Shown here: one piece after another, positions 5,191-37,684 of the stretch | How the letters are laid out: each line of letters opens with the position of its first letter | Numbering within the stretch: the first letter of the stretch is position 1 | Assembly: GCA_032718475.1 (NCBI GenBank) | Contig: JAUCBJ010000072.1 | Coordinates: forward strand, 1 to 37,819 | Source: Nemertoderma westbladi | Taxonomy: Eukaryota; Animalia; Xenacoelomorpha | Direction of reading: 5' to 3' | DNA: 37,819 nt | Notes under the pieces: generated by a model | Told to the model about the DNA's origin: nothing | What the model saw: the letters and a program-made list of their open reading frames with translations, nothing else | Database searches by the model: none | Made by a program: the position numbers and the translations under genes

Positions 5191-5324
5191 ACTATGAGAT
5201 AGAATTCCATATGCGCCTGTGGTAAAAGACTCTAAATTTAATAGTTTGTGGTTGTTGTCGATAATCGATTACCACATGACGTAGCAAAACACTCATTTTA
5301 TAGCCAAAAACAATTACCAATTGA

Positions 5325-5916
5325 TGGAAAGGATGAGCAGGTTAAGGCCGGATTTTCTAACCAAAACAATAAACAGTCACTTTACCAAATCAGGGAAAGG
5401 AGCAGGTTACAGAGGCGGGATTTTCTAACCAAAACAATAAACGATCATTTAACTAATTGAGGGAAAGGAGCAGGTTACAGAGACGGGATTTTCTAACGAA
5501 AACAATAAACGATAACATTACCAATTGAGAGAAAGGAGCAGGTTACAGATGCGGGATTTTCTAACCAAAACAATAAACAGTCACTTTACCAAATCAGGGA
5601 AAGGAGCAGGTTACAGAGACGGGATTTTCTAACCAAAACAATAAACGATAACATTACCAATTGAGAGAAAGGAGCAGGTTACAGAGTCGGGATTTCCTAA
5701 CCAAAACAATAAACGATCACTTAATTAATTGAGGGAAAGGGGCAGGTTACAGAGGCGGGATTTTCTAACCAAAACAATAAACAGTCACTTTACAAAATGA
5801 AGTAAAGGAGCAGGTTACAGAGGCGGGTCTTTCTAACCAAAACAATAAACGGTCACTTTACCAAATCAGGCAAAGGAGCAGGTTACAGATGAGGCGGGAT
5901 TTTCTAACCAAAACAA
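5325..5916. repeat. About 68-bp tandem repeat, 8-9 copies
   Basis: Recurrent GAAAGGAGCAGGTTACAGAGGCGGGATTTTCTAACCAAAACAATAAAC. Confidence 0.93.
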
Positions 5917-6231: not shown

Positions 6232-7878
6232 CTTTAGATCCCAGAGCACCTTAGATCCTGAACGAACTTAGATCTTGGGTGAACTTAGATCCTTCCCATA
6301 CGAACTTAGATCCTTCCCATACGAACTTAGATCCTTCCCATACGAACTTAGATCCTTCCCATACGAACTTAGATCCTTCCCATACGAACTTAGATCCTTC
6401 CCATACGAACTTAGATCCTTCCCATACGACCTAAGATCCTTCCCATACGAACTTAGATCCTTTACTATACGAACTTAGATCCATCCCATACGAACTTAGA
6501 TCCTTCCCATACGAACTTAGATCCTTCCCATACGAACTTAGATCCTTCCCATACGAACTTAGATCCTTCCCATACGAACTTAGATCCTTCCCATACGAAC
6601 TTAGATCCTTCCCATACGACCTAAGATCCTTCCCATACGAACTTAGATCCTTTACTATACGAACTTAGATCCATCCCATACGAACTTAGATCCTTTCCCA
6701 TACGAACTTAGATCCTTTCCCATACGAACTTAGATCCTTACTGTAAATATTATCACGCTTGAAGGGAAGCGAACTTAGATCCTACCACCAATACATTGCA
6801 ACAAATTAGCTATTAATTTGCAAATTATAGTTTGTAAGCGAGTCACTGATCCCAACAACTTGAGTGTATGATCATTAGAAGTATTTTGTATATGCTTAAT
6901 ATGCCTACAGTAATTGTCATGAACGGGAGGTTGGTTTCTTGGAATATTCTTCCAGATCGTTTGAACCGCCCATGATCAGATTTAAAACTCAATAATATAA
7001 TTATATCTTTCTCTACAGTAATTTAATAATTGACTTATTATTTACAAAAGGACACAAAGAATGTTACAGCAACAATTAATAACAATATCACCATCACCTC
7101 ACTAACACTAATGTCTTCCTATTATTGTATTACGGAACTAATTGACCTTTTTAATTAGGACGATCAGCAGGAGCATTTCTTTAAAATAAAGAGGTTATTC
7201 TAATAGCGTTGAACAAACATAAGATAGTTAATAATATAGACAATACTGTATGTATATCAATAATATAATATATAAGTTGAGATCAACAACAGTAACTGTA
7301 CTACAGTATATATGAACATTAACTAACATTAAATTATGAACGAAATCAAACTTTATTTCCCTTCACTTGAATATATTTTATGACAATAATATTGTATAAT
7401 AAGTATCAAATCAAATTCATCTCTCATTCTGTCATTCTCAGTATAATAATAATAACTATAGGGTCTAAACTTTTAAGGCGTACTAAAAAGGACCATGATG
7501 TGCCATGATGGTGGCCGAGTGGATCTAGGTGAACTTAGATCCTAAGGATTTAAGTTCACCTAGTTAGGATCTAAGTTCACCTAGTTAGGATCTAAGTTCA
7601 CAGAGTTAGGATCTAAGTTCACCTAGTTAGGATCTAAGTTCACCGAGTTAGGATCTAAGTTCACCTAGTTAGGATCTAAGTTCACCTAGTTAGGATCTAA
7701 GTTCACCGAGTTAGGATCTAAGTTCACCTAGCTAGGATCTAAGTTCACCTAGTTAGGATCTAAGTTCACCTAGTTGGGATCTAAGTTCACCTAGTTAGGA
7801 TCTAAGTTCACCCAGATAGGATCTATGTTCGCAAAGATCTAAGTTCATCAAAGTCAGGCCTTGAAGGATCTAAGTTCG
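6232..7878. mobile_element. Foldback-like element with two inverted 21-bp arrays
   Basis: Left array (GAACTTAGATCCTTCCCATAC)n at about 6281-6738; right array (GGATCTAAGTTCACCTAGTTA)n at about 7521-7878. They share the core GAACTTAGATCC in opposite orientation around an AT-rich spacer. No TSD found. Confidence 0.65.
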
Positions 7879-9483: not shown

Positions 9484-12400
9484 ATGATCTGGAGTGAGAA
9501 TAATGATCTGGGAGTGAGTATAATGATCTGGGAGTGAGAATAATGATCTGGGAGTGAGAATATTGATCTGGAATGATAATAATGATCTGGGTGTGAGTAT
9601 ATTGATCTGGAAGTGAGAATAATGATCTGGGAGTGAGAATAATAAATCTAGAAGCGAGAATAATGATCTAGGAGTGAGAATAATGATCTGGGAATGATAA
9701 TGATGATCTGGGAGTGAGTATAATGATCTAGGGAGTGAGAATAATATCTGGGAGTTAGTATAATGATCTGGGAGTGAGAATAATGATCTGAGAGTGAGAA
9801 TAATGATCTGGGAGTGATAATAATGATCTGGGATTGATAATAATGATCTGGAAGTGAGTATAATGGTCTGGGAGTGAGTATAACGATTTGGGAGTGAGAA
9901 TAATGATCTGAGAGTGAGAATAATGATCAAGGAGTTAGAATAATGATCTGGGATTGAGAGTAATGATCTGGGAGTGAGTATAATGATCTGGTAGTGTGTA
10001 AATGATGTGGGAGTGAGTAAATGATCTGGGAGTGAGAATAATGATCTGGGAGTGAGAATAATGATCTGGTAGTGAGAATAATTATCTGGGAGTGAGTATG
10101 ATCCGGGAGTGAATATAATGATCTGGGAGTGAGAATAATTATCTGGGAGTGAGTATGATCCGGGTGTGAGAATAATGATCTGGGAGTGAGAGTAATGATC
10201 TGAGAGTGAGTAAATGATATGTGGGTGAGAATAATTATCTGGGTGTGAATATAATGATCTGGGAGTGAGTATAATGATCTGGGAGTAAGTAAATGATCTG
10301 GAAGGAGTGCGTATAATGATCTGGGGGTGAGTATAATGATCTGGAAGTGAATATAATAATCTGGGAGTGAGAATAATGATCTGGGAGTGAGAATAATGAT
10401 GTGGGAGTGAGAATAATGACCTGGGAGTGAGAATAATGATCTGTGAGTGAATATAATGATATGGGAGTGAGAATAATGATATGGGAGTGAGACTATTGAC
10501 ATGGGAGTGAGAATAATGATCTGGGAGTGAATATAATGATCTTTGAGTGAGAATAATGATCTTGGAGTGAGAATAATGATCTGAGAGTGAGTGAGAATAA
10601 TGATCTGGGAGTGAGAATAATCACATGGGAGTGAGAATAATGATCTGGGAGTGAATATAATAATCTGGGAGTGAGAATAATGACATGGGAGGGAGTGAGA
10701 ATATTGGCCAGGGAGTAAAAATAATGATCTGGGAGTGAGTATAATGATCTGAGAGTGAGAATAATGACCTGGGATTGATAATAATGATCTGGGTGTGAGA
10801 ATAATGATCTGGGATTAAGAATAATGATCTGGTACTGAATGGATGATCTGTGAGTGAGAGCAATGATCTGGGTGTGAGAATAGTGATCTGGGAGTGAGAA
10901 TAATGACCTGGGAGTTAATATAATGATCTGGAAGTAAGAATAATGATCTGGGAGTGAGTAAATGATCTGTGTGTGAGAATAATGATCTGGGAGTGAGAAT
11001 AATGATCTGGGAGTGGAATAATTATCTGGGAGTGATAATAATGATCTGAGAGTGAGAATAATGATCTAGGAGTGATAATAATGATCTGGGAGTGAGTATA
11101 ATAATATGGGAGTGATAATGATGATTTGGGAGTGAGTATAATGATCTGGGTGTTAGAATAATGATCTGGGAGTGGGTATAATGATCTGGTAGTGAGAATA
11201 ATGATCTGGGAGCGAGTATAATGATCTGGGAGTCAGAATAATGACCTGGAAGTGAGAATAATGATCTGGGAGTGAATATACTGATCTGGGAGTGAATATA
11301 ATGATCTTGAAGTAAGAATAATGATCTGGGAGTGAGTAAATGATCTATGTGTGAGAATAAAGATCTGGGAGTGAGAATAATGATCTGGGAGTGGAATAAT
11401 TATCTGGGAGTGATAATAATGATATGAGAGTTAGAATAATGACATGGGAGGGAGTGAGAATATTGACCTGGGAGTGATAATAATGATCTGGGAGCGAGTA
11501 TAACGAGCTGGGAGTGAGAATAATGATCTGCGATTGAGAATAATGATCTGGGTGTGAGAATAATGATCTGGGATTGAGAATAATGATTTGGGAGTGAGAA
11601 TAATGATCTGGGAGTGAATATAATGATCTGGAAGTAAGAATAATGATCTGGGAGTGAGTAAATGATCCAGGAGTGATAATAATGATCAGGGAGTGAGTAA
11701 ATGATCTATGTGTGAGAATAAAGATCTGGGAGTGAGAATAATGATCTGGGAGTGAGTAAATGATCTATGTGTGAGAATAAAGATCTGGGAGTGAGAATAA
11801 TGATCTGGGAGTGGAATAATTATCTGGGAGTAATAATAATGATCTGAGAGTGAGAATAATGATCCAGGAGTGATAATAATGATCAGGGAGTGAGTATAAT
11901 GATATGGGAGTGAGAATGATGATCTGGGAGTGAGTATACTGATCTGGGAGTAAGTATAATGATCTGGGAGTGAGTATAATGATCTGGGTGTTAGAATAAT
12001 GATCTGGGAGTGGGTATAATGATCTGGTAGTGAGAATAATGATTTGGGAGTGGGTATTATGATCTGGTAGTGAGAATAATGATCTGGTAGTGAGTGGATG
12101 ATCTGGGAGTGAGAGCAATGATCTGGGAGGAGTGAGTATAATGATCTGGGAGTGAGTGGGAGTGAGTATAATGATCTGGAAGTGAATATAATAATCTGGG
12201 AGTGAGATTAATGATCTGGGAGTGAGAATAATGATGTGGGAGTGAGAATAACGACCTGGGAGTGAGAATAATGACATGGGAGTGTGCATATTGACCTGGG
12301 AGTGATAATAATGATCTGGGAGTGAATATAATGATCTGGGAGTGAGAATAATAACATGTGAGGAAGTGAGAATATTGACCCGGGAGTGAGAATAATGATC

Positions 12401-12877
12401 TGGGAGTGAGTATAGTGATCTGTGAGTGATAATAATTATATGGGAGTGAGTAAATGATCTGGAGTGAGAATAATAATCTGGGAGTGAGAATAATGATCTG
12501 GGAGTGAGAATAATGACCTTGGAGTGAGAATAATGATCTTGGAGTGAATATACTGATCTGGGAGTAAGAATAATGACATGGGATTGAGAATGTTGACCTG
12601 GGAGTGAGAATAATGATCTGGGAGTGAATATAATGATCTAGGAGTGATAATAATGGCATGGGAGGGAGTGAGAATATTGATCTGGGAGTGAGAATAATGA
12701 TCTGGGAGTGAGTATAATGATCTGGGAGTGAGAATATTGATCTGGGATTGAGAATAATGATCTGGGTGTGAGAATAATGATCTGGGATTGAGAATAATGA
12801 TCTGGTAGTGAGTGGATGATCTGGGAGTGAGAGCAATGATCTGGGAGTGAGAATAATTATCTGGGTGTGAGAATAAT
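9484..12877. repeat. 20-bp minisatellite (about 170 copies) filling the last AKT intron
   Basis: Unit ATGATCTGGGAGTGAGAATA with point variants; starts about 15 nt after the donor at 12892. Confidence 0.97.
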
Positions 12878-12892
12878 ATTGAAACATATTAC

Positions 12893-13771: not shown

Positions 13772-14065
13772 CTATAGAGGAAAGTGAAATTAATTCCACG
13801 ACATATTGTATTGACTCGTACTGGTGTTGTTCTGTATGTTAGAACCACCACCACCCCCCCCCCCCCCCCCCCAAACCCAAACATACAGTGATACAAATAA
13901 TATTCCCCCGGACATTCTACTTCATTCATTCATACATTCTTAGGGGTGTACCACTCCCCATGCATTCTATGTAACTTTTTGTATGATGATGATGATGCAA
14001 AGTAGACTCCCTTAAGGGATCCCCAGATCCTTAAGACTCCCAGGCAATGCCGTCTAAATTCAGGT

Positions 14066-20005: not shown

Positions 20006-21781
20006 TACTACTACTAGTATCGGCATGCTGCATTGCAGCTGCATTTTTAAGAATGCTGTGCCGGCTTGTAGACAAAATTGCGCCGCCACAACTCCCTATC
20101 ACCCATGACATTTGCTAGATCATCCGCATCTTCAAGGCCAGTGTCCTTTAAGATGCGTCTCAAGAAAGTCATGGGCTGTCCACCATGCTTATTCACTCCA
20201 TGAGGCTGCCAAAGTACAAGATTATGCACTGGCTGGTCCTCACGGCGAAAGCAATGTCCTGCAAAGCGGAGGCGATTTTGTTCTAGTGTCAAGCTTGGGG
20301 GAACCAATGAGACCTCCAATGTTATATAGTGTCTGGTTGGAGATGTGTGCATTGTACTTGACACAATGAACCCGGCGTAGCATTCTTGTGAATGTGCCAT
20401 CCAGAGATTTGGTGTCCTCAGCAGTTAGAGCCCAGCATGGACTCCCATAGAGGAGTACTGGAACTACTGCTGCTCTAAATAATCGGACCTTAAGTTTCCG
20501 ATTAATTCTCGGTGACTTCCAAATCCTGGAAAGCCTATTCAAGGCTGCCCATGCCTTACCCTTACGTATTCGAAGGTCCTCACCTAACTTCCGGATCCAT
20601 GATCCCAGGCAACAGAAATCGTCCACATGCTCAAGCATACCATCGTTTGAGCTTATGCTCATCCGATCAGAGACTTGCTGAGAACTTTCAAAGTTAACTG
20701 TCAAAATTTTGGTCTTTCTGGAGTTAATAAAAAGACCAACACTAGAAGCAGCATGTTCTAATGAGCTGAAGAGCCGTTGGGCTCCCTCTAGTGATTCTGA
20801 GAGTATTCCTAAGTCATCGGCAAAGTCTAGATCAGTTAGGTACTTGGCAGGATTTCCTCGACTTCTGGATCCAGAAGGTGGAGTTATCATCACCCCATCA
20901 TGATCTAAGGACATGCGTAGAACATAGTCAACCACAATTATGAACAAGAATGGTGCATGTGTGTCTCCCTGGAGGACGCCCCATAACACTTCAAATGGTT
21001 CTGTGTCACCATCAACAGTAAACACAAACGTTGTCGAACCATCGTATACTGATCTGATTGCTGCAATAATTTCATCAGGAATCCCATATAATGAAAGTAT
21101 GCTGAACATACGAGAGCGCGGGATACTGAATCAAAGGCCTTGAAGAAGTCAACAAAGATAACAGCCAGATGCCTGTCCTTCTTTTTTGATAACTCTTCAA
21201 TTATCCTTCTAAGTGCCAAAATGGGTTTACGGAACCCATTCTGATTTCCACGGAGCAGTCTCTCAATGGGATCCCTGGTGCGATTTAATAGAATTCTATT
21301 GTTTAGCTTTGCAGCAATCGAGATCAATGAGATTCCCCGAAAAGAACAATAGAGTGTTAGGTTGCCTTTCTTGGGAACTGGCACCAACTTATTTGTTTTC
21401 ATTTCTTGTGGGACTCTTGTTGTTCGGTACATGTCTACTATGATGGGATAGATGAGCTTTAAACACTCAGGTATTTTAAAGACCTCAGGGGGGAACACCA
21501 TCTACTCCACTGGCACGATTGGTCGTAATGCTCTTTGCAGCAGCCTTCACTTCTGCAAAGGAGATATCGCCAATGGGAATATCTGGGAGTACAGACTCAG
21601 ACACTTTTACTTCTATAAAGTTATCAGGCAATACCCTGTCATTATTGAAGAGCTTTTCAAAGTGGGCCTTCCAACCATTGGGGCGATCGTCTGGTGATTC
21701 AGCCTTAACCTTGGTGGTTGGTTGGCTTTTCCGCCCAGTAAGCAAGTTGATCGATCGTATTCCAGCTATCAGATAGATTTC
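20006..21781 (-). mobile_element. 5'-truncated, frameshifted non-LTR retrotransposon (RTE-like) with target-site duplication
   Basis: RT motifs FVDFFKAFDSV, GVLQGD..PFLF and DFADDL; C-terminal RLRFAGHCFR; (TAG)n 3' tail; 12-bp TSD CTTTACTCCCCC at 19994-20005 and 21782-21793. Confidence 0.92.
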
Positions 21782-22155
21782 CTTTACTCCCCCAGCAGCT
21801 GTCGGGGGACCTAAGACAACAATGACTGATACAACCTTATTCATTTCTGGCTCTGGCTGTTCAATTAATATTTATATCTCACAAATAGAACATTCATAGA
21901 ACATTCCTGATTAGAGTTTACATTGAAATAAATTAGCAAGACCCTTAATGGTAGTCAATGGTTAGGAGGAGCCTATTTCATAAATATTCATTGGGTTCAT
22001 TCCAGAATAATGTGTTTATTTATGTAATATTTGATGAACCGCAGCAGTAGTAGCATAAGCAGGATTAAGTATAAGGACATTAAATATCGACTTATTCGTA
22101 TACTTTGTACAAATCTAGATTTGGGACCGGTATTTATTTATTAGTATTGGTATTG

Positions 22156-23580
22156 TCGTAGGTTGGCACTGCCGGAGTATAGGTCGGCGAGGGTAGGGGC
22201 CCGTAGGTTGGCACTGACGGAGTATAGGACGGTGCCGGTGAGGGTAGGGGCCCGTAGGATGGCACTGCCGGAGTATAGGGCGGTGAGGGTAGGGACCCGT
22301 AGGTTGGCACTGCCGGAGTATAGGTCGGTGAGGGTAGGGGGCCGTAGGTTGGCACTGCCGGAGTATAGGTCGGTGAGGGTAGGGGGCCGTAGGTTGGCAC
22401 TGCCGGAGTATAGGTCAGTGAGGGTAGAGGCCCGTAGGTTGGCACTGCCGGAGTATAGGTCGGTGAGGGTAGGGGCCCGTAGGTTGGCACTGCCGGTGTA
22501 TAGGTCGGTGAGGGTAGGGGCACGTAGGTTGGCACTGCCGGAGTATAGGACGGTGAGGGTAGGGGCCCGTAGGTTGGCACTGCCGGAGTATAGGTCGGTG
22601 AGGGTAGGGGCCCGTAGGTTGGCACTGCCGGAGTATAGGTCGGTGAGGGTAGGGGCCCGTAGGTTGGCACTGCCGGAGTATAGGTCGGTGAGGGTAGGGG
22701 CCCGTAGGTTGGCACTGCCGGAGTATAGGACGATGAGGGTAGGGGCCCGTAGGTTGGCACTGCCGGAGTATAGGTCGGTGAGGGTAGGGGCACGTAGGTT
22801 GGCACTGCCGGAGTATAGGACGGTGAGGGTAGGGGCCCGTAGGTTGGCACTGCCGGAGTATAGGTCGGTGAGGGTAGGGGCCCGTAGGTTGGCACTGCCG
22901 GAGTATAGGTCGGTGAGGGTAGGGGCCCGTAGGATGGCACTGCCGGGGTATAGGTCGGTGAGGGTAGGGGCCCGTAGGTTGGCACTGCCGGAGTATAGGT
23001 CGGTGAGGGTAGGGGCCCGTAGGTTGGCACTGCCGGAGTATAGGTCGGTGAAGGTAGGGGCCTGTAGGTTGGCACTGCCGGAGTATAGGTCGGTGAGGGT
23101 AGGGGGCCGTAGGTTGGCACTGCCGGGGTATAGGTCGGTGAGGGCAGGGGCCCGTAGGTTGTCACTGCCGGAGTATAGGTCGGTGAGGGTAGGGGGCCGT
23201 AGGTTGGCACTGCCGGAGTATAGGTCGGTGAGGGTAGGGGCCCGTAGGTTGGCACTGCCGGAGTATAGGTCGGTGAGGGTAGGGGCCCGTAGGTTGGCAC
23301 TGCCGGGGTATAGGTCGGTGAGGGTAGGGGCCCGTAGGTTGGCACTGCCGGGGTATAGGTCGGTGAGGGTTGGGGCCCGTAGGTTGGCACTGCCGGAGTA
23401 TAGGTCGGTGAGGGTAGGGGCCCGTAGGTTGGCACTGCCGGAGTATAGGTCGGTGAGGGTAGGGGCCCGTAGGTTGTCACTGCCGGAGTATAGGTCGGTG
23501 AGGGTTGGGGCCTGTAGGTTGGCACTGCCGGAGTATAGGTCGGTGAGGGTAGGGGCCCGTAGGTTTGCACTGCCGGAGCT
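22156..23580. repeat. 45-bp GC-rich minisatellite (about 31 copies), open on both strands
   Basis: Unit GGCACTGCCGGAGTATAGGTCGGTGAGGGTAGGGGCCCGTAGGTT; the minus frame gives ([15 protein letters not shown])n. Confidence 0.95.
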
Positions 23581-23684
23581 ATAAGCCCGTTTGTTTTAAT
23601 TTAAAATTTTATGTTTACTAATTATTGATTTGATCAATAATTGCGATATTCTAATTTCGATTGCAATAAAATTATAACTATTTA

Positions 23685-24520: not shown

Positions 24521-25787
24521 TAAAACATATATATTTTTGCCTGGCTTCCCTTTTACATCAAGGATATACCAGCATTTTAATATTATATTCTAATCTTATA
24601 TTAATAAACTAACAAGAGTCTAAGGTTATAGAACAGAATGGGATATAATATAACAAAACAATAATACAACAAACATTTTTTATATTGTTCCCGTCGAGTG
24701 TTAGTGTATTTTTAGTATTAGTGTAATTTTAAGATAAAATAAAAAAAATTTCACAAGGGAAAAAGTAATTATTATTGAAAATGGACGCAAATCCCATCTT
24801 GGCGAATTAACATCCCGCCTCAATGTTAAATTCTCAATTTAGGAAAAGGAGCAGGTTACAGTGGCACGTTATTTTAACCAAAACAATAAACTAAACACAA
24901 TAGAACAGGTTACAGTTTTATTTTTGAGAGTAATCATCTGTTATTTGCGTCGAATTTCCCCTGGAGAGGGATTAATTTTTATTGCGTCGAAAGACCCCTC
25001 CCCTATCTGACGCACTGAATCCATTAATTATGTTAAAAGAAAGCCTTGGCTAGCATAAGATCAATTAAATTGTTCTAGGAAACATTTTGTATATTATGAA
25101 AAACAGATATAAATGGATAGGCCCTGCTGTATGGTTGTAATAAAATAAAAATTCCCGATCCCTGAAATTATAAATGCCGATTCCGTTGCAACATTATAAT
25201 ACGATACGATATGATTATCTTTATTATGCCTCTAGCACGCTATTCATTTATAATACGTAATTGTTATCGTTTCAGTTTGACTCTGGGCTGCATTGTCTAG
25301 CGAGTAGCCAGTATGTAAGCCAGTATGTCATTAAGAATAAAGGGTTACCATACCATATGCTGTGCGCATAATAAACCTCTTTATTAATTATTATACGCGT
25401 ACTAACGAGTATTATAGTAAATAAGATACTGAACACCAAACGTTTGGCTAGGAAACTATTATTAACTGCTAACACAACATTGGCACACTAGCTAAAAGGG
25501 AGCAATAAATATTGATTATTATTATTTTTCGGGTGTGAAATATTGAAAGTATAGGATTCCGTCTGAGAAACCGTCTCGTAAACTAGGAAGCGTGAACGGT
25601 TGTAATTCATTAATATTGTAAACAACAGCTAGCCGTATTTAATTATTTGTTGTAACCTTAGGAACATAGGATAAGGCCTGTGGTTTACGTAACTCAGGTC
25701 ATTGGACGATAATAAATTATCACGTCCGAGATGAGTCGTAGTAAATATATATTGTAGCAGCGTAGTAAATAGTATAGCAACCTATTA

Positions 25788-25857: not shown

Positions 25858-26081
25858 AATTAATAGCTGCAGCGTAGTAGATGTATAGTAAAAGTGGAAT
25901 ATATGGAAGCAAAAGTAATTAATAGTAGAATAATAGATGTATAGGATAATAATAGATAATGTAGCAACACAATGGTACATATTGCGGTCAATTTGCGCCA
26001 CTATCTCTGGCAACATGACAGTATATAGTACAGCCTCGTAATCAAGATACCAGCCGCTATCCAAAACTACATTATTTTGCA

Positions 26082-27467
26082 ATGATATATGATAAACTAG
26101 ATGCCAAGGTTACCAAACCGAGACCAAGATATACGCTTACGCAATGGTTTATAGGAGCGTCGTTGTTGGCTTCCCAAGGAGCACCGGCATTATTCTACAC
26201 AATACCCCAACCTTTCTTCCCGTTGGTCGCTACACAACGGAGATGGAGTCACTCCCTGATTGGTGCGTTGTACAGTCTGGTCGCGGTAGTCCGTATCCTT
26301 AGCTACTGCGCGCTGGGCAGCCGTATAAGCCGACTCAGCAATGCTCTTAGCATCGGGGCTTTAGGGGGGACGTCCGCGGTTTCCGTGATGTTATTTGGAT
26401 TAGCGAGTTTTATAACCAACGAATGGGCCTTCGTGGTGGCGTGTTTCTCGCTGCGCGTCGTCGAGGCTGTTGGGCTAACGGCCGCTCATCTCGCCACTTA
26501 CGGTTTACTCACCCAAATATTCCGCTCCCACAGGGCTCTGGTTATAGGCGCTGCCATAGCAACCGCGCACGTAGGCAGGTGTCTGGGTCCCTCTGTGAGT
26601 GCGGTGCTGTACGATACGGGAGGCTTCTACCTTCCTTTCGTTACCTTCGGGGCGGCCCACTGCTTGGTCTGTGGCGTCAGCGCATTCATTGCACCAAGCA
26701 TAGACCAACCCACTAAATTAGTAAAAGCTGCTTCATTGACTGGACTGTATAAGAACTACATTTGTCTGCTATCGGCGTATCTACAAGTTACTTTCAATAT
26801 CGCTATGGGATTTTACGCGTCGAATTTCGCTCTCCATTTGCGGAACGACTACGCCGTGCAAGTGCAATACATCGGGCTGGTGTTTCTAATTCCGCCTTTT
26901 TTCAACTGTCTCGTCGGTTTGTTGGTAAGCGTTTCGCTCCATCGCTCCCGCAGACTGAACCCCGCTTGCGTAATGCTCGGTGGCGCCGTCTCATTGGCCC
27001 TTGCTATGCAACTGTTCGGGCCTACCGGTCTGCCTCCCAATCTCCCCACCGTTCTCATTGGTTCCGCCCTCTTTGGTCTTTCCGGCGGACTCATTTTCAC
27101 ACCCAGCTTCGAGACTCAGTCCCGCGTCGCTTTGCGTTCCATGCGATGGGCCAACGACGCTACGACTAACGCCGTAGTCAGCGCCGCCTTCCGTATAAAC
27201 AGCAACGCTGGGCTGATTATCGGCCCAGTTTTGGGTTCGGTTATCACTCAGTATATCAACTTTAGTACAGCCGCCTCCATACTCAGTATCACCATCGTTC
27301 CAGTTATTGTGGGTCTTTTAATTTTTATTATTCAAGGCGACAGCGATGTCTTGGGATTGGTCGACAATAGGCAATACAGTAAAATACCGCTAGATGACAA
27401 TATTGATGACGTCATACATCCCAACAGTGGCGCTGTAGACAGTGACTCGAGTGTTAACCAATTATAG
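26082..27467 (+). CDS. MFS transporter, SLC18B1-like; intronless, nested antisense in an AKT intron
   Basis: 461-aa intact ORF with about 12 hydrophobic segments. CFSLRVVEAVG and LGPSVSAVLYDTGGFYLPF resemble SLC18B1/VMAT-family MFS motifs. GC content is higher than the flanks. Confidence 0.88.
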   Translation: MIYDKLDAKVTKPRPRYTLTQWFIGASLLASQGAPALFYTIPQPFFPLVATQRRWSHSLIGALYSLVAVVRILSYCALGSRISRLSNALSIGALGGTSAVSVMLFGLASFITNEWAFVVACFSLRVVEAVGLTAAHLATYGLLTQIFRSHRALVIGAAIATAHVGRCLGPSVSAVLYDTGGFYLPFVTFGAAHCLVCGVSAFIAPSIDQPTKLVKAASLTGLYKNYICLLSAYLQVTFNIAMGFYASNFALHLRNDYAVQVQYIGLVFLIPPFFNCLVGLLVSVSLHRSRRLNPACVMLGGAVSLALAMQLFGPTGLPPNLPTVLIGSALFGLSGGLIFTPSFETQSRVALRSMRWANDATTNAVVSAAFRINSNAGLIIGPVLGSVITQYINFSTAASILSITIVPVIVGLLIFIIQGDSDVLGLVDNRQYSKIPLDDNIDDVIHPNSGAVDSDSSVNQL

Positions 27468-28660
27468 TCGTTTTGGGGGTAGACAGTTGTCAGACACAAA
27501 CAAAATTCATTCCTCACCAGGGGAAAATCGATGCAGATAAATGCTGCGGTTACTCGCAAAAAGAAACTACTGTAACCTGTGCTATTACCTTTCATTTATC
27601 GTTTTGGTTAGACTAATATGCTACTTTAACCTGCTCCTTTCCCATGGCCAGTGTTAATTGGCCGAGGCGAGACATTAATCCTGCCAGGTGGAGGTGGGAT
27701 TCGTGTCATTATTCACTCATATAATATGTTGTTGTTATAATATAAATTGTTTAAAAGATTAAACATCATGTTATCGTATAACTGAATATTAATAGGGTCT
27801 CCAGACTAGTGTTTAAACGGGGATAGGGACCTGGATTGTATTTTTTATTGTAAGAATATGTGGCGGGTTTTGGGTATCACTCACTTTATCTTACACTTCT
27901 GAAATATTTGTAAGATAAAGTTTTTTTTAATTATTTTGAAATTGATTACTCTACTGGATGGCTTATTACTGACATGTTATATATTCGATATAATAAAAAA
28001 CATTTATGTTCTGCTGCAACTATTTATCAGATATTAAACAAATTGATTTCACTATTATTTATACTTCGGGATCGCGTTCCAAAAAAGTTGGGATCGGGAC
28101 CGGGATTACATTTTTCGCCGGGATCCCGGTATTGCGCCATAATCTTGCTACTTGGAGTATCTGTAACCTAAACAAACTATATTCTTAAAGCCAAATTTTC
28201 AGCATATTAAGGTACTAAATTTGGACTCCTGCTTATATTTTTTAAGTTTTTATTCCAAAATTGTAACATTACTCAACGCGATTAGTATTAATAACAGCGA
28301 ATTGTAATTTAACACTTAACAACTTTAGAGGACATTACGTCATTGTATTGGCCTGTTTTGGTGTAGTAATGTCCCGACGGCGATCTGTAAAGTGACGGCG
28401 TCATTGGTTACCACGTAAACAATAGTTGACTATTTATTATTAATTGCCTGACAGCCAGATAGGCCTTCTGCATTAACTGCCGGTAGCTATTAATAACCAG
28501 TAGCTGTAAACTATTAAAATTGTTCCAAATGCCACCATAAATATAAGCTAACTTTTTTATAACATACAATTAATGTAATTTTTACATTTATTTATAACGC
28601 AACTAATTTAATTTGTGCAGTTTCTATCTCTTATAATATAATATATATACAATCATTTCG

Positions 28661-29657: not shown

Positions 29658-29846
<189 letters not shown>

Positions 29847-29924: not shown

Positions 29925-31000
29925 CTACTACTACTACTATCGTCATGTTGCATTATATATATATATCATATTAATAAAAAATGCTGAGCCGCTTTTGACA
30001 AAATTGCGCCGCTACAACTCACTATCACCCATGACATTTGCTAGATCATCCGCATCTTCAAAGCCAGTGTCCTTTTTTAAGATGCGCCCCAAGAATGTAA
30101 TGGGCTGTCCACCATGCTTATTCACTCCGTGAGGCCGCCATAGCACAAGATTATGCACTGGCTGGTCCTCACGGCGAAAGCAATGTCCTGCAAGGCTGAC
30201 GTGGCTCCGTTCAAGTTTCAAGCTTGGTGAGACTAATGAAAGACCTCCAATGTTAACGTGTGATTGGAGCTGTGTTTATTGTACTACACAGAGAACACGG
30301 CGTAGCACTCTTGTATAAATGCCATCCAGAGATTAGATTTAGTATTCTCTGCAGTTAGAGCCCAGGCTATATAGGAATACAGGCAGACTATTCAATGATG
30401 CCCATGCCTTCCCCCAAAGTATCCGAAGGTCTTCACCTGACTTCGAGATCCATGATCCTATGTAGCAGAAGTCATCCACATGCTCAAGCAAGCCATCCGT
30501 GAAGCTTATCTCCTTACGATCAGGCATTTGTTGACTGCTGTCAAAGTTCACTGTAAAAATTATTTTTAAATCATCTTATTGTTAATTAATTCCTCTTTGT
30601 AAAAAATCGTTTTGGAGTTTACTAAAATACCAAAACTAGAAGCAGCCTGCTCCAATGAGCAGAAGAGCCCTTGGTCACCCTCTAGTGATTCTGACAGTAC
30701 CTCTAAAACAGCAAAGTCTAGATCAGTAAAAGGTAATTAATTGACTTGGATTTCCTCCAGTGACTGCAGTACTTCTAGTACCTGTGAATGGGGGGGGGGG
30801 GGGGGGGGGGGGGTATTACCATCACCCCAACTTTAGATAGTCTAATAATAAGCACATGCATAAAACATACCAACCAAATTTATGAATAAGAATGGTGCAA
30901 GTTTCTCCGTGAAGGACTCCCCATAAGACTTCGAATGGATCTGTGTCACCATCAGCAGTAAATAGTCACACGTGTTGTAAGACCATCGAACATATCTATT
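29925..31000 (-). mobile_element. Second, more decayed copy of the same RTE-like LINE
   Basis: Collinear with about 20006-21050 (AGHCFRREDQPVHNLVLW; LEHVDDFC), same (TAG)n tail, with deletions and a poly-G insertion. Confidence 0.88.
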
Positions 31001-31043: not shown

Positions 31044-31160
31044 CCGCGCCGCGCCGCCTAGCCGCGGCGAGCCGCCAACCCGCGCCGCGCCGCCTACCCG
31101 CGGCGAGTCGCCAACCCGCGCCGCGACGCCTACCCGCGCCCGCCGCCAACCCGCCGCCTA
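31044..31160. repeat. 36-bp very GC-rich tandem repeat, about 3 copies, next to the GC donor
   Basis: CCCGCGCCGCGCCGCCTASCCGCGGCGAGYCGCCAA repeated. Confidence 0.85.
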
Positions 31161-31182
31161 CAATTTATTACAACAAACTTGC

Positions 31183-31295
31183 CTGTAAACAATATTAAGT
31201 TTGTGCAAGTATCCCAAAGCGCACACGATCTCGGCCCCATAGAAACGGGCCTTGTCCTCTGAGAAAAACTTCGCTCTCGTTAGATGGAAAAACAA
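31183..31295 (-). CDS. AKT: AKT exon: alphaD-alphaE up to the catalytic loop; GC donor
   Basis: ctttctag|, 113 nt. [37 protein letters not shown](R). Donor CAG|gcaagt, phase 2, matches the next exon. Confidence 0.95.
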
Positions 31296-31430
31296 CTAGA
31301 AAGACAAAGAGATTACAATTAATTGATTTTAAATAATATATAAATATATACGGGTCGTTTTGTATTGAAGGAATCCCAAGAAGGTATCTTTGGTCGTATT
31401 CCGTATGACTTTCCTTACAATGTACAATAC

Positions 31431-34400
31431 TATTCCTACCTCGCCACTGTTATACAGTATTCCGACCTCGCCACCGTTACAGCATTCCTACCTCACTACC
31501 GTTACAGTATTCCGACCTCGCCACCGTTACAGTATTCCCACCTCGCCACCCTTACAGTATTCCTACCTCGCCACTGTTACAGTATTCCTACCTCGCCACC
31601 GTTACAGTATTCCTACCTCGCCACCGTTACAGTATTCCTACCTCGCCACCGTTACAGTATTCCTTCCTCGCCACTGCTACAGTATTCCTACCTCGCCACT
31701 GTTACAGTATTCCCACCTCGGCACCGTTACAGTATTCCTACCTCGCCACCGTTACAGCATTCCTACCTCGCCACTGTTACAGTATTCCTACCTCGGCACC
31801 ATTACAGTATTCCTACTCCGCCCCGCCACCGTTACAGTATTCCTACTTCGCCACTGTTACAGTATTCCCACCTCGGCACCGTTACAGTATTCCTACCTCA
31901 CCACCGTTACAGTATTCCTGCCTCGCCACCGTTACAGTATTCCTACCTCGCCACCGTTACAGTATTCCTACCCGCCCCGCCACAGTTACAGTATTCCTAC
32001 CCCGTCCCGCCACCGTTACAGTATTACTACCTCGCCACCATTACAGTATTCCAACCTCGCCATTGTTACAGTATTCCTACCTCGCCACAGTTACAGTATT
32101 CCTACCCCGCCCCACCACCGTTACAGTATTCCTACCTCGCCACCGTTACAGTATTCCCACCTCGCCACCGTTACAGTATTCCTACCTCGCCACTGTTACA
32201 ATATTCCTACCTCGCCACTGTTACAGTATTCCTACCTCGCCACCGTTACAGTGTTCCTACCTCGCCACCATTACAGTATTCCTACCTCGCCACTGTTACA
32301 GTATTCCTACCTCGCCACTGTTACAGTATTCCCACCTCGGCACCATTACAGTATTCCTACCTCGCCACCGTTACAGTATTCCTACCTCGCCACTGTTACA
32401 GTATTCCCACCTCGGCACCGTTACAGTATTCCTACCTCGCCACCGTTACAGTATTCCTACCTCGCCACCGTTATACAGTATTCCTACCTCGCCACCGTTA
32501 TAGCATTCCTACCTCGCCACCGTTACAGTATTCCGACCTCGCTACCGTTACAGTATTCCCACCTCGCCACCGTTACAGTATGCCTACCTCGCCACCGTTA
32601 TACAGTATTCCTACCTCGCCACCGTTACAGCATTCCTACCTCGCCACCGTTATACAGTATTCCTACCTCGCCACCGTTACAGTATTCCTACCTCGCCACC
32701 GTTACAGCATTCCTACCTCGCCACCGTTATACAGTATTCCCACCTCGCCACCGTTACAGCATTCCCACCTCGCCACCTTTGCAGTATTCCTACCTCGCCA
32801 CCGTTACAGTATTCCTACCTCGCCACCGTTACAGTATTCCTACCTCGCCACCGTTACAGCATTCCTACCTCGCCACCGTTATACAGTATTCCCACCTCGC
32901 CACCGTTACAGCATTCCCACCTCGCCACCGTTGCAGTATTCTTACCTCGCCACCGTTACAGTATTCCTACCTCGCCACCATTACAGTATTCCTACCTCGC
33001 CACTGTTCAGTATTCCTACCCCGCCCCGCCACCGTTACAGTATTCCTACCTCACCACTGTTGCAGTATTCCCACCTCGGCACCGTTACAGTATTCCTACC
33101 TCGCCACCGTTACAGTATTCCTACCTCGCCACCGTTATAGTATTCCTACCTCGCCACCGTTACAGTATTCCTACCTCGCCACCGTTACAGTATTCCTACC
33201 CCGCCCCACCACCGTTACAGTAGTCCTACCTCGCCACCGTTATAGTATTCCTACCTCACCACCGTTACAGTATTCCTACCTCGCCACCGTTACAGTATTC
33301 CTACCTCGCCACAGTTATATTATTCCTACCTCGCCACCGTTACAGTATTCCTACCTCGCCACCGTTACAGTATTTCTACCTCGCCACCGTTACAGTATTC
33401 CTACCTCGCCACCGTTACAGTATTCCCACCTCGTCACCGTTACAGTATTCCTACCTCGCCACCGTTACTGTATTCCCACCTCGCCACCGTTACAGTATTC
33501 CTACCTCGCCACAGTTACAGTATTCCTACCCCGCCCCGCCACCGTTACAGTATTACTACCTCGCCACCGTTTCAGTATTCCAACCTCGCCACCGTTACAG
33601 TATTCCCACCTCGCCACCGTTACAGTATTCCTACCTCGCCACCGTTACAGTATTCCTACCTCGCCACCGTTACAGTATTCCTACCTAGCCACTGTTACAG
33701 TATTCCCACCTCGTCACCGTTAAAGTATTCCTACCTCGCCACCGTTACAGTATTCCTACCTCGCCACCGTTACTGTATTCCCACCTCGCCACCGTTACAG
33801 TATTCATACCTCGCCACAGTTACAGTTTTCCTACCCCGCCCCGCCACCGTTACAGTATTCCGACCTCGCCACCGTTACAGTATTACTACCTCGCCACCGT
33901 TACAGTATTCCTACCTCGCGACCGTTACAGTGTTCCAACCTCGCCACCGCACCGTTACAGTATTCCTACCTCGCCACCGTTACAGTATTCCTACCTCGCC
34001 ACCGTTACAGTATTACTACCTCGCCACCGTTACAGTATTCCGACCTCGCCACCGTTAAAGTATTACTACCTCACCACCGTTACAGTATTCCAACCTCGCC
34101 ACCGTTATAGTATTCCGACCTCGCCACCGTCACAGTATTACTACCTTGCCACCGTTACAGTATTCCTACCTCTCCACCGTTACAGTATTACTACCTCGCC
34201 ACCGTTACAGTATTCCGACCTCGCCACCGTTACAGTATTACTACCTCGCCACCGTTACAGTATTCCAACCTCGCCACCGTTACAGTATTCCTACCTCGCC
34301 ACCATTACAGTATTACTACCTCGCCACCGTTACAGTATTTCTACCTCGCCACCGTTACAGTATTACTACCTCGCCACCGTTACAGTATTCTGACCTCGTA

Positions 34401-36631
34401 ATCATTACAGTATTACTACCTCGCCAACGTTACAGTATTACTACCTCGCCACCGTTACAGTATTCCAACCTCGCCACAGTTTTAGTATTCCGACCTCGCC
34501 ACCGTTACAGTATTCCTACCTCGCCACCGTTACAGTATTTCTACCTCGCCACCGTTGCAGTATTCCAACCTCGCCTCCGTTACAGTATTACTACCTCGCC
34601 ACCATTACATTATTACAACCTCGCCACTGTTACAGTATTCCCACCTCGCCACCGTTACAGTATTACTACCTCGCCACCGTTACAGTATTCCTACATCGGC
34701 ACCGTTACAGTATTCCTCCCTCGCAACCGTTACAGTATTTTTACGTCGCCACGCCACTATTACAGTATTCCTACCTCGCTACCGTTACAGTATTCTTACC
34801 CCGCCCCGCCACCATTACAGTATTCCTACCTCGCCACCGTTACAGTATTCATACCTCGCCACCGTTACAGTATTCATACCTCGCCACCGTTACAGTATTC
34901 ATACCTCGCCACCGTTACAGTATTCCTACCTAGCCACTGTTACAGTATTCCCACCTCGTCACCGTTACAGTATTCCTACCTCGCCACCGTTACAGTATTC
35001 CTACCTCGCCACCGTTACTGTATTCCCACCTCGCCACCGTTACAGTATTCATACCTCGCTACAGTTACAGTTTTCCTACCCCGCCCCGCCACCGTTACAG
35101 TATTCCGACCTCGCCACCGTTACAGTATTACTACCTCGCCACCGTTACAGTATTCAAACCTCGCCATCGTTACAGTATTCCGACCTCGACACCGTTACAG
35201 TATTACTATCTCGCCACCGTTACAGTATTATTACCTCGCGACCGTTACAGTGTTCCAACCTCGCCACCGCACCGTTACAGTATTCCTACCTCGCCACCGT
35301 TACAGTATTCCTACCTCACCACCGTTACAGTATTACTACCTCGCCACCGTTACAGTATTCCGACCTCGCCACCGTTAAAGTATTACTACCTCACCACCGT
35401 TACAGTATTCCAACCTCGCCACCGTTATAGTATTCCGACCTCGCCACCGTCACAGTATTACTACCTTGCCACCGTTACAGTATTCCTACCTCTCCACCGT
35501 TACAGTATTACTACCTCGCCACCGTTACAGTATTCCGACCTCGCCACCGTTACAGTATTACTACCTCGCCACCGTTACAGTATTCCAACCTCGCCACCGT
35601 TACAGTATTCCTACCTCGCCACCATTACAGTATTACTACCTCGCCACCGTTACAGTATTTCTACCTCGCCACCGTTACAGTATTACTACCTCGCCACCGT
35701 TACAGTATTCTGACCTCGTAATCATTACAGTATTACTACCTCGCCAACGTTACAGTATTACTACCTCGCCACCGTTACAGTATTCCAACCTCGCCACAGT
35801 TTTAGTATTCCGACCTCGCCACCGTTACAGTATTCCTACCTCGCCACCGTTACAGTATTACTACCTCGCCACCGTTGCAGTATTCCAACCTCGCCTCCGT
35901 TACAGTATTACTACCTCGCCACCATTACATTATTACAACCTCGCCACTGTTACAGTATTCCCACCTCGCCACCGTTACAGTATTACTACCTCGCCACCGT
36001 TACAGTATTCCTACATCGGCACCGTTACAGTATTCCTCCCTCGCCACCGTTACAGTATTTTTACGTCGCCACGCCACTATTACAGTATTCCTACCTCGCT
36101 ACCGTTACAGTATTCTTACCCCGCCCCGCCACCATTACAGTATTCCTACCTCGCCACCGTTACAGTATTCATACCTCGCCACCGTTACAGTATTCATACC
36201 TCGCCACCGTTACAGTATTCATACCTCGCCACCGTTACAGTATTCCTACCTCGCCACCGTTACAGTATTCCTACCTCGCCACCGTTACAGTATTCCTACA
36301 TCGGCACCGTTACAGTATTCCTACCCCGCCACCGTTACAGTATTTTTACGTCGCCACACCACCGTTACAGTATTCCTACCTCGCCACCGTTACAGTATTC
36401 CTACCCCGCCCCGCCACCGTTACAGTATTCCTACCTCGCCACTGTTACATTATTCCTACCCCGCCACCGTTACAGTATTCCTACCTCGCCACAGTTACAG
36501 TATTCATACCTCGCCACCGTTACAGTATTCATACCTCGCCACCGTTACAGAATTCATACCTCGCCACCGTTACAGAATTCATACCTCGCCACCGTTACAG
36601 TATTCCTACCTCGCCACCGTTACAGTATTCC
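31431..36631 (-). repeat. 25-bp minisatellite (about 200 copies) derived from the AKT exon/donor junction
   Basis: Plus-strand unit TATTCCTACCTCGCCACCGTTACAG; runs without a break into the exon at 36610-36631. Confidence 0.97.
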
Positions 36632-36744
36632 ATAACGAAACAAAGTCTGTCTTTTGTTTGGAAGGAGCATCTCAACTCGGTTAGGAAGGGATGTTTAGTA
36701 ACTTGTAGAACGCGACTCTCGGAACGTAAATGGTCGACTTCGTT
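36610..36744 (-). CDS. AKT: AKT exon: alphaC helix to hinge
   Basis: ctttcag|...|gtagga, 135 nt. [45 protein letters not shown]. The last 21 nt are the first unit of the 25-bp satellite. Confidence 0.96.
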
Positions 36745-37193: not shown

Positions 37194-37684
37194 CTAAACC
37201 AAAAAAAAAAAAAATATATATACTGTGTGGTGGGGAACTGTAACTGGAGATAAAACTGATAAACTTATTTTTCATGAAAATTCACCAAAAGAGGTTGTTT
37301 TGCATCTTGCAATCTTAAAATGACTTTATGTTGGTTAGAAAATGGAACAAATCGTAGTTGGCCTACCGGCACCGGTTCATGCTAAAATTATTGAACCGCT
37401 TTTTGAATTATTGCTCAATTTATCTGATATGTAAAAAGGCACTACCAACACTATAAAATACTGTTGAAAAGTATCAGCAACCAGTAAAACAACCCATACA
37501 TCACGCAACCAATGCAGGATATCATTGTGTAATATGTAGCAACAGACACCCCCCCCCCCCCCCCCCCCCCCTCCTGGCTAAACCACAAACATTTAATTTA
37601 ATTTTATTTTAGTTTTTCTGGAAACCACCCTTTTACGTGCGTGTTGTTCTGACGCTCCCCAGTATATTACTGTATAAGACAGAC

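What the first reader, a model, noticed from the sequence alone, without database searches (positions are those of the whole stretch)
31296..31445. Birth of the splice-donor satellite is readable: 6-bp microhomology and a 144-nt ancestral intron
Seen: the last unit runs into unique intron as GAG|GTAGGAATAGTATTG, while the exon reads ATGGAATACTG. GGAATA therefore occurs in the exon and at intron +4, exactly 25 nt apart in the collapsed allele. Removing the array leaves an ordinary 144-nt intron (31296-31439) instead of 5314 nt. Inference: slippage between the two GGAATA copies seeded the array, expanding the intron about 37-fold without changing the protein.
Basis: partly seen in the sequence, partly recalled or inferred. 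Interest (0 to 1): 0.7.

Follow-up and report, generated by a model that had tools for sequence, protein, structure and literature searches.

The report
Splice-donor minisatellite in AKT intron
A 25-base piece spanning the end of one exon of an animal AKT kinase gene and its splice signal is repeated about 200 times in the next intron, likely started by a small copying slip; the one spliced copy found uses the first signal, and this kind of repeat is already known from human and lancelet genes.

Summary
Observation confirmed. The AKT intron (minus strand, 36609-31296) is 5314 nt: 203 whole units copied from the exon end plus donor, then 144 nt. GGAATA lies in the exon and at +4 of that remnant. 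A spliced contig joins the first donor to 31295; all 203 later donors would hit a stop. Another AKT locus has a donor at the same codon, so the intron likely predates the array.

The birth story is likely (about 0.6) but not 'readable'. A 6-nt overlap is rare at a random duplication joint (18 of 20000), yet it cannot be told from a cut last unit, and 6 of 7 other arrays here end in partial units of 10 nt or more. No array-free allele appeared in two samples; no sister species was reachable. Growth included a 1320-nt block duplication.

Known kind: human F7/CBS/6-16 minisatellites, amphioxus 'mirages', microhomology-mediated duplication. The scan found such arrays before on other DNA. Side lead: donor positions +3..+5 are altered in 72 of 101 exon-proximal units against 31 of 101 distal ones.

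The parts
36610..36744 (-). AKT kinase-domain exon (45 codons) whose last 22 nt are the source of the repeat unit
   Evidence: Covered exactly by spliced contig of run X4; Pfam Pkinase hit; open frame with flanking exons
36626..36631 (-). Exonic GGAATA (within Met-Glu-Tyr codons), upstream arm of the proposed microhomology
   Evidence: Sequence
36604..36612 (-). Authentic 5' splice site GAG|GTAGGA, cut after 36610
   Evidence: X4 contig ends at 36610 and continues with exon 31295
31440..36609 (-). Minisatellite of 203 whole units (179 of 25 nt, 16 of 30, 6 of 27, one each of 24 and 29), 87 distinct, 38 identical to consensus; 198 keep GT
33915..36224 (-). Higher-order duplication inside the array, lag 52 units = 1320 nt (units 15-53 repeated as 67-105; end coordinate approximate)
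   Evidence: 32 informative identical unit pairs at lag 52, next best lag 6; 3 mismatches in the first 990 nt
31431..31439 (-). Terminal partial unit GTA+GGAATA: last decoy donor, and either the ancestral intron start (seed) or a cut unit
   Evidence: identical in samples S1 and S2
31296..31430 (-). Unique intron remnant with pyrimidine tract and AG acceptor
   Evidence: Not a decayed unit; acceptor used in X4 contig
31183..31295 (-). Next AKT exon (LFFHL...IVYR), followed by a GC donor
   Evidence: X4 contig covers it and joins on to exon 29826

Best explanation
The array is a locally born minisatellite made of the last 22 nt of an AKT exon plus the first bases of an older intron, likely started by one 25-nt tandem duplication between two GGAATA words and then enlarged by further unit gains and at least one 1320-nt block duplication. 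Shown: anatomy, exon origin, block duplication, use of the first donor in one spliced contig, a stop codon behind every later donor. Inferred: that the intronic GGAATA was there before the first duplication; that the copies are tolerated because the most upstream of consecutive donors is chosen, as shown for human F7, and any other choice would give a stop-bearing transcript; that the array is neutral.
For: Exon origin: unit encodes E-Y-x-N-G-G-E, matching the motif in 67 of 120 stored AKT homologues that carry this stretch (120 of 216 hits were stored); no copy of the unit outside the array in the window (one 7-mismatch chance hit; none by blastn), whereas the 68-mer has two dispersed copies. 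Old intron: locus L004 has a GT donor after the same GGE codon (1 of 2 AKT-like loci with the codon). Seed: overlap of 6 nt or more at a random 25-nt duplication joint in 18 of 20000 trials; sharp break after +9; nearly 80% of human tandem repeats carry such arms (PMC13167724 section 13). Splicing: X4 contig joins 36610 to 31295 with no mismatches; 0 of 203 later donors avoid a stop; first-donor preference in F7 (PMC1557585).
Against: A partial last unit gives the same sequence; 6 of the 7 other longer arrays of the window end in partial units of about 10-56 nt, some too long for chance seeds. The last whole unit is a derived 27-nt variant shared with internal units, so the edge has taken part in turnover. 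No array-free allele was seen. L001, the other AKT-like locus, has no intron at this codon. Splicing rests on one contig from one run that the tool labels 'DNA?'; contigs drop rare isoforms, and a retrocopy would look the same.
Confidence: 0.6

Rival explanations
1. Same local origin, but the 6-nt overlap is a cut last unit: the first duplication joined with little or no homology, and a later deletion trimmed the intron-side edge, perhaps with some original intron. The ancestral intron start and length are then unknown.
For: Partial end units are usual in this window (TRF fractional copies 0.8, 0.7, 0.6, 0.1, 0.6, 0.5, 0.6 for seven other arrays; edges read). Only the exon edge is pinned by coding; the last whole unit is derived.
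Against: Needs a second event landing at one of 25 phases; the terminal units carry more changes (1.67 events per unit for the last three against 1.28 overall), as expected of an old edge; the edge is identical in S1 and S2.
Confidence: 0.3
2. The array is not neutral: selection favours unit variants that weaken decoy donors close to the true donor (compatible with either birth route).
For: 105 of 246 substitutions in the 179 25-nt units fall on +3..+5. These positions are changed in 72 of 101 proximal against 31 of 101 distal units, other positions 56 against 67; my neutral simulations reach that difference in 1-9 of 219-281 runs two-sided. The four units after the true donor all read GTATGA.
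Against: The GT itself, the most effective target, is hardly changed (198 of 203 keep it); 77 decoys are identical to the true 9-mer context (76 internal plus the terminal one); comparable column hot spots occur in the other five arrays tested (2.1-4.7-fold against 3.2-fold); units 1-25 are less altered (12 of 25) than units 26-50 (22 of 25); block duplication makes units non-independent; the window +3..+5 was chosen after seeing the data; 'weaker' is a crude U1-match proxy.
Confidence: 0.15
3. A dispersed satellite landed here and resembles the exon by chance or overwrote its end.
For: This window does hold dispersed tandem families (68-mer, 21-mer core). The exon has Cys where 67 of 67 AKT homologues with the motif have Val or Ala. 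The whole genome could not be searched.
Against: 22 of 22 nt identity to a conserved kinase motif ending exactly at an old donor; no copy elsewhere in the window; 0 exact matches in metagenome contigs; several other kinases also read MEYCNGGE.
Confidence: 0.03

Closest known systems
Human F7 intron 7 37-bp VNTR, with 6-16, CBS intron 13, LAMIN B2 and PDGF minisatellites (PMC1557585; seen: abstract, introduction, discussion)
   Same: First unit spans the exon-intron boundary, donor reiterated in the intron, first donor used (F7, LAMIN B2, PDGF).
   Different: 203 units against 5-9 (F7) and at most about 25 in the cases listed there; unit is mostly exonic (22 of 25 nt against 4 of 37); every later donor gives a stop; use of nearby decoys, seen in 6-16 and CBS, could not be tested here.
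Amphioxus 'mirages' (Adh3, globins BflGb6/BflGb9; PMC3087553; seen: passages)
   Same: Minisatellite-like tandem copies of an exon-intron boundary in an invertebrate-type gene that do not disturb normal splicing; edge units excluded from homogenisation.
   Different: Far more copies here; length polymorphism and somatic instability, reported for mirages, were not testable; the paper calls the generating mechanism unclear, and this case offers a candidate seed.
Microhomology-mediated tandem duplication / Haber and Louis model (PMC13167724; seen: passages and section 13; the 1998 paper itself not read)
   Same: Unit of 8 bp or more with a short direct-repeat arm at the array ends.
   Different: Here the single-copy allele is not observed, and the array is old enough for its edge to have been remodelled.

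Membership tests
Exon-intron-spanning minisatellite ('mirage', F7 type) | First unit spans an exon-intron boundary | tested here: met
   22 nt exon + donor; boundary confirmed by spliced contig
Exon-intron-spanning minisatellite ('mirage', F7 type) | Splice signal reiterated in tandem in the intron | tested here: met
   198 of 203 units keep GT; 77 decoys identical in the 9-nt context
Exon-intron-spanning minisatellite ('mirage', F7 type) | Normal splicing at the authentic site | tested here: met
   One spliced contig, run X4, first donor; rare isoforms not visible in contigs
Exon-intron-spanning minisatellite ('mirage', F7 type) | Copy-number polymorphism between alleles | tested here: inconclusive
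   Array present in S1 and S2; contigs cannot span it and summed depth is no copy number
Microhomology-mediated tandem duplication | Short direct repeat at the two ends of the duplicated segment | tested here: met
   6 nt, rare at a random joint (18 of 20000)
Microhomology-mediated tandem duplication | Both arms present in the single-copy ancestral allele | not testable with these tools
   No genome held, no array-free allele, no close relative found
Intron gain by tandem duplication of a proto-splice site | Intron position is new and created by the duplication | tested here: not met
   L004 has a donor at the same codon; the acceptor is unique sequence, not a unit
Dispersed satellite family | Copies at unrelated loci | tested here: inconclusive
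   None in the 37.8-kb window; genome not available

The most novel reading that the evidence does not exclude
A very large decoy-donor array (about 200 copies, eight times the largest in the lists I read) whose units have been shaped by selection on splicing: variants that blunt positions +3..+5 of the donor have spread in the half next to the true donor, making the array a natural record of how far decoy competition reaches along a pre-mRNA, with its founding microhomology still in place.
Probability: 0.12. Interest if true: 0.6.

Novelty: new member of a known kind. Interest (0 to 1): 0.25.

Why it matters
As it stands it is a large, clean example of a known class. If an array-free allele confirmed the seed, it would supply a concrete birth route for 'mirage' repeats, which PMC3087553 calls unclear. 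With about 200 near-identical donors behind an essential kinase exon it is also a stringent natural test of first-donor selection outside mammals.

Tried and rejected
Whole-genome search for the unit: no genome held. Metagenome scan for the 22-nt exonic part: 0 matches. Close relatives: best protein hits 55-69% identical, none close; 73 metagenome loci, of which I inspected 10, only L001 and L004 AKT-like across this codon. Apparent collapsed allele: the loose end at 36601 in X1 and X2 reads like the remnant joined to the exon, but it is the same 587/597-nt contig that fits 31160-31495 with no differences, placed a second time through the repeat; rejected. Repeat depth (about 30-fold over flank in X1, over 100-fold in X2) is no copy number by the tool's own note; not used. 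The run search listed no holder on record as RNA; X4 proved spliced only on laying. X3 did not cover the intron remnant; no inference. Decayed units in the remnant: not above background. G-quadruplex as driver: the unit has four GG runs and DNA folding predicts a weak two-tier quadruplex (-4.66 kcal/mol for two units), but the G4Hunter-type score is only 0.6; left as a weak lead. A first exon list had one boundary off by a base; corrected. Paper searches were for the class, not for this organism, which I did not identify; I make no claim that this locus is unpublished. No supplements were read.

Full report
Setting. The window holds most of an animal AKT kinase gene on the minus strand. Eight exons between 37795 and 9066 join into one open frame of 382 residues ending in a stop; a single exon finds AKT proteins at 55-69% identity (216 hits, 120 listed). 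No genome is held for the window and I did not identify the organism.

Observation. The intron after the exon 36744-36610 is 5314 nt. It starts with 203 whole units covering 5170 nt and ends with 144 nt (31439-31296), whose first 9 nt continue the repeat phase. GGAATA stands in the exon (36631-36626) and at +4..+9 of that remnant, 25 nt apart after an in-silico collapse. After +9 the similarity stops sharply: anchored alignments to further units score no better than background or shuffles under six settings.

Origin of the unit. Its 22 exonic bases encode part of the conserved MEYxNGGE motif, found in 67 of the 120 stored homologues. No copy lies elsewhere in the window, while the same blastn found two dispersed copies of the 68-mer. 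A metagenome scan found none. Locus L004, an AKT-like sequence, has a GT donor after the same codon; L001 has no intron there. The intron is therefore likely older than the array, and its acceptor is unique sequence, so this is not intron gain by duplication.

Splicing. Run X4, labelled 'DNA?' by the tool, holds one 2203-nt contig that covers exons only and joins 36610 directly to 31295, and 31183 to the exon at 29826 through a GC donor. This shows use of the first donor; contigs drop rare forms and a retrocopy is not excluded. Every one of the 203 later donors would include a stop codon in the first unit. Human F7, with the same layout, uses the most upstream of consecutive donors (PMC1557585; abstract, introduction, discussion read). 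I infer the same here.

Is the birth readable? For: at a random 25-nt duplication joint over this exon end, an overlap of 6 nt or more arose in 18 of 20000 trials, and nearly 80% of human tandem repeats carry such arms (PMC13167724, section 13). Against: an array cut at phase 6 gives exactly the same letters. Six of the seven other longer arrays in the window end in partial units of about 10-56 nt (TRF fractions, edges read by eye); the 68-mer and the two 21-mers among them belong to dispersed families, which weakens this control. Seeds are also cheap: 594 of 1500 random intron starts gave a direct repeat of 6 nt or more straddling this donor at some spacing of 10-70 nt, and 2 of the 6 other donors of the gene have one. 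The last whole unit is a derived 27-nt form shared with internal units. My estimate, a judgement and not a computed value, is about 2 to 1 for a true seed. The 144-nt ancestor was not observed: samples S1 and S2 each give one unbroken contig across 31160-31495 with no differences, into the array; either may be the source of the assembly. The loose end at 36601 is that same contig placed again through the repeat.

Growth. Units differ from the consensus by 1.28 events on average; 87 are distinct. Units 15-53 recur as 67-105, a lag of 1320 nt with 3 mismatches in the first 990 nt. The 37-fold expansion therefore includes large unequal exchanges, not just unit slippage. The total length rests on the assembly alone.

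Side lead. Substitutions concentrate at donor positions +3..+5 (105 of 246 in the 179 units of 25 nt; the 24 length variants were left out of this count). In my neutral simulations some 3-column window reached this share in 2 of 231 to 23 of 159 runs, and other arrays here have similar hot spots, so the concentration alone is unremarkable. The gradient is less easily dismissed: 72 of 101 proximal against 31 of 101 distal units altered there, reached two-sided in 1-9 of 219-281 simulated arrays. But GT is almost never hit, 77 decoys match the true site, units are not independent, and the test was post hoc. I give selection about 0.15.

Comparison. It works like, and meets the tested defining features of, exon-intron-spanning minisatellites (F7, CBS, 6-16, LAMIN B2, PDGF) and amphioxus mirages (PMC3087553, passages; the lead to this paper came from an earlier scan note). 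It differs in size, about 200 units against at most about 25 in those lists. Earlier scan notes report like arrays in other genomes (unchecked). Membership of microhomology-mediated duplication is met in form but its decisive feature, both arms in the single-copy allele, could not be tested.

Verdict. Real, accurately described, a new member of a known kind. The seed story is likely but unproven and is the textbook model; the ancestral intron length is a subtraction. Interest 0.25.

Noticed in passing
window 31182-29827 (-): GC-AG intron of the AKT gene; the GC donor is used in the X4 contig.
   Followed up: yes
window 9484-12877 (-): A second giant intronic array (20-mer, about 170 copies) starts 15 nt after the donor at 12892 and fills most of the last AKT intron; on the sense strand each unit looks like a pyrimidine tract ending in CAG, i.e. 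possible decoy acceptors, though it is not copied from the real acceptor.
   Followed up: no
window 26019-27467 (+): Intronless major-facilitator transporter frame (482 aa, Pfam MFS_1) nested antisense in the 15.9-kb AKT intron.
   Followed up: partly
window 20047-21871 (-) and 30012-30575 (-): Broken LINE-like element with reverse-transcriptase hits (two frames scanned), and a shorter related fragment in the GC-AG intron (seen).
   Followed up: partly
window 22157-23583: 45-bp array, open in three frames; one reads as a 488-aa Pro/Thr/Tyr-rich repeat with no Pfam hit; coding status unknown.
   Followed up: partly
window 6250-6739, 7520-7830, 1980-2032: Tandem arrays sharing a 12-13-nt core in opposite orientations, like the ends of a non-autonomous element.
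   Followed up: no
window 5314-5916, 24835-24891, 27592-27643: 68-mer array with two dispersed partial copies.
   Followed up: partly
window 36622-36624 region (-): AKT has Cys in MEYCNGGE where 67 of 67 AKT homologues with the motif have Val or Ala; the array consensus carries the Cys codon too.
   Followed up: partly
window 30790-30812, 37550-37572, 13853-13872: Long G or C runs of about 20 nt in introns.
   Followed up: no
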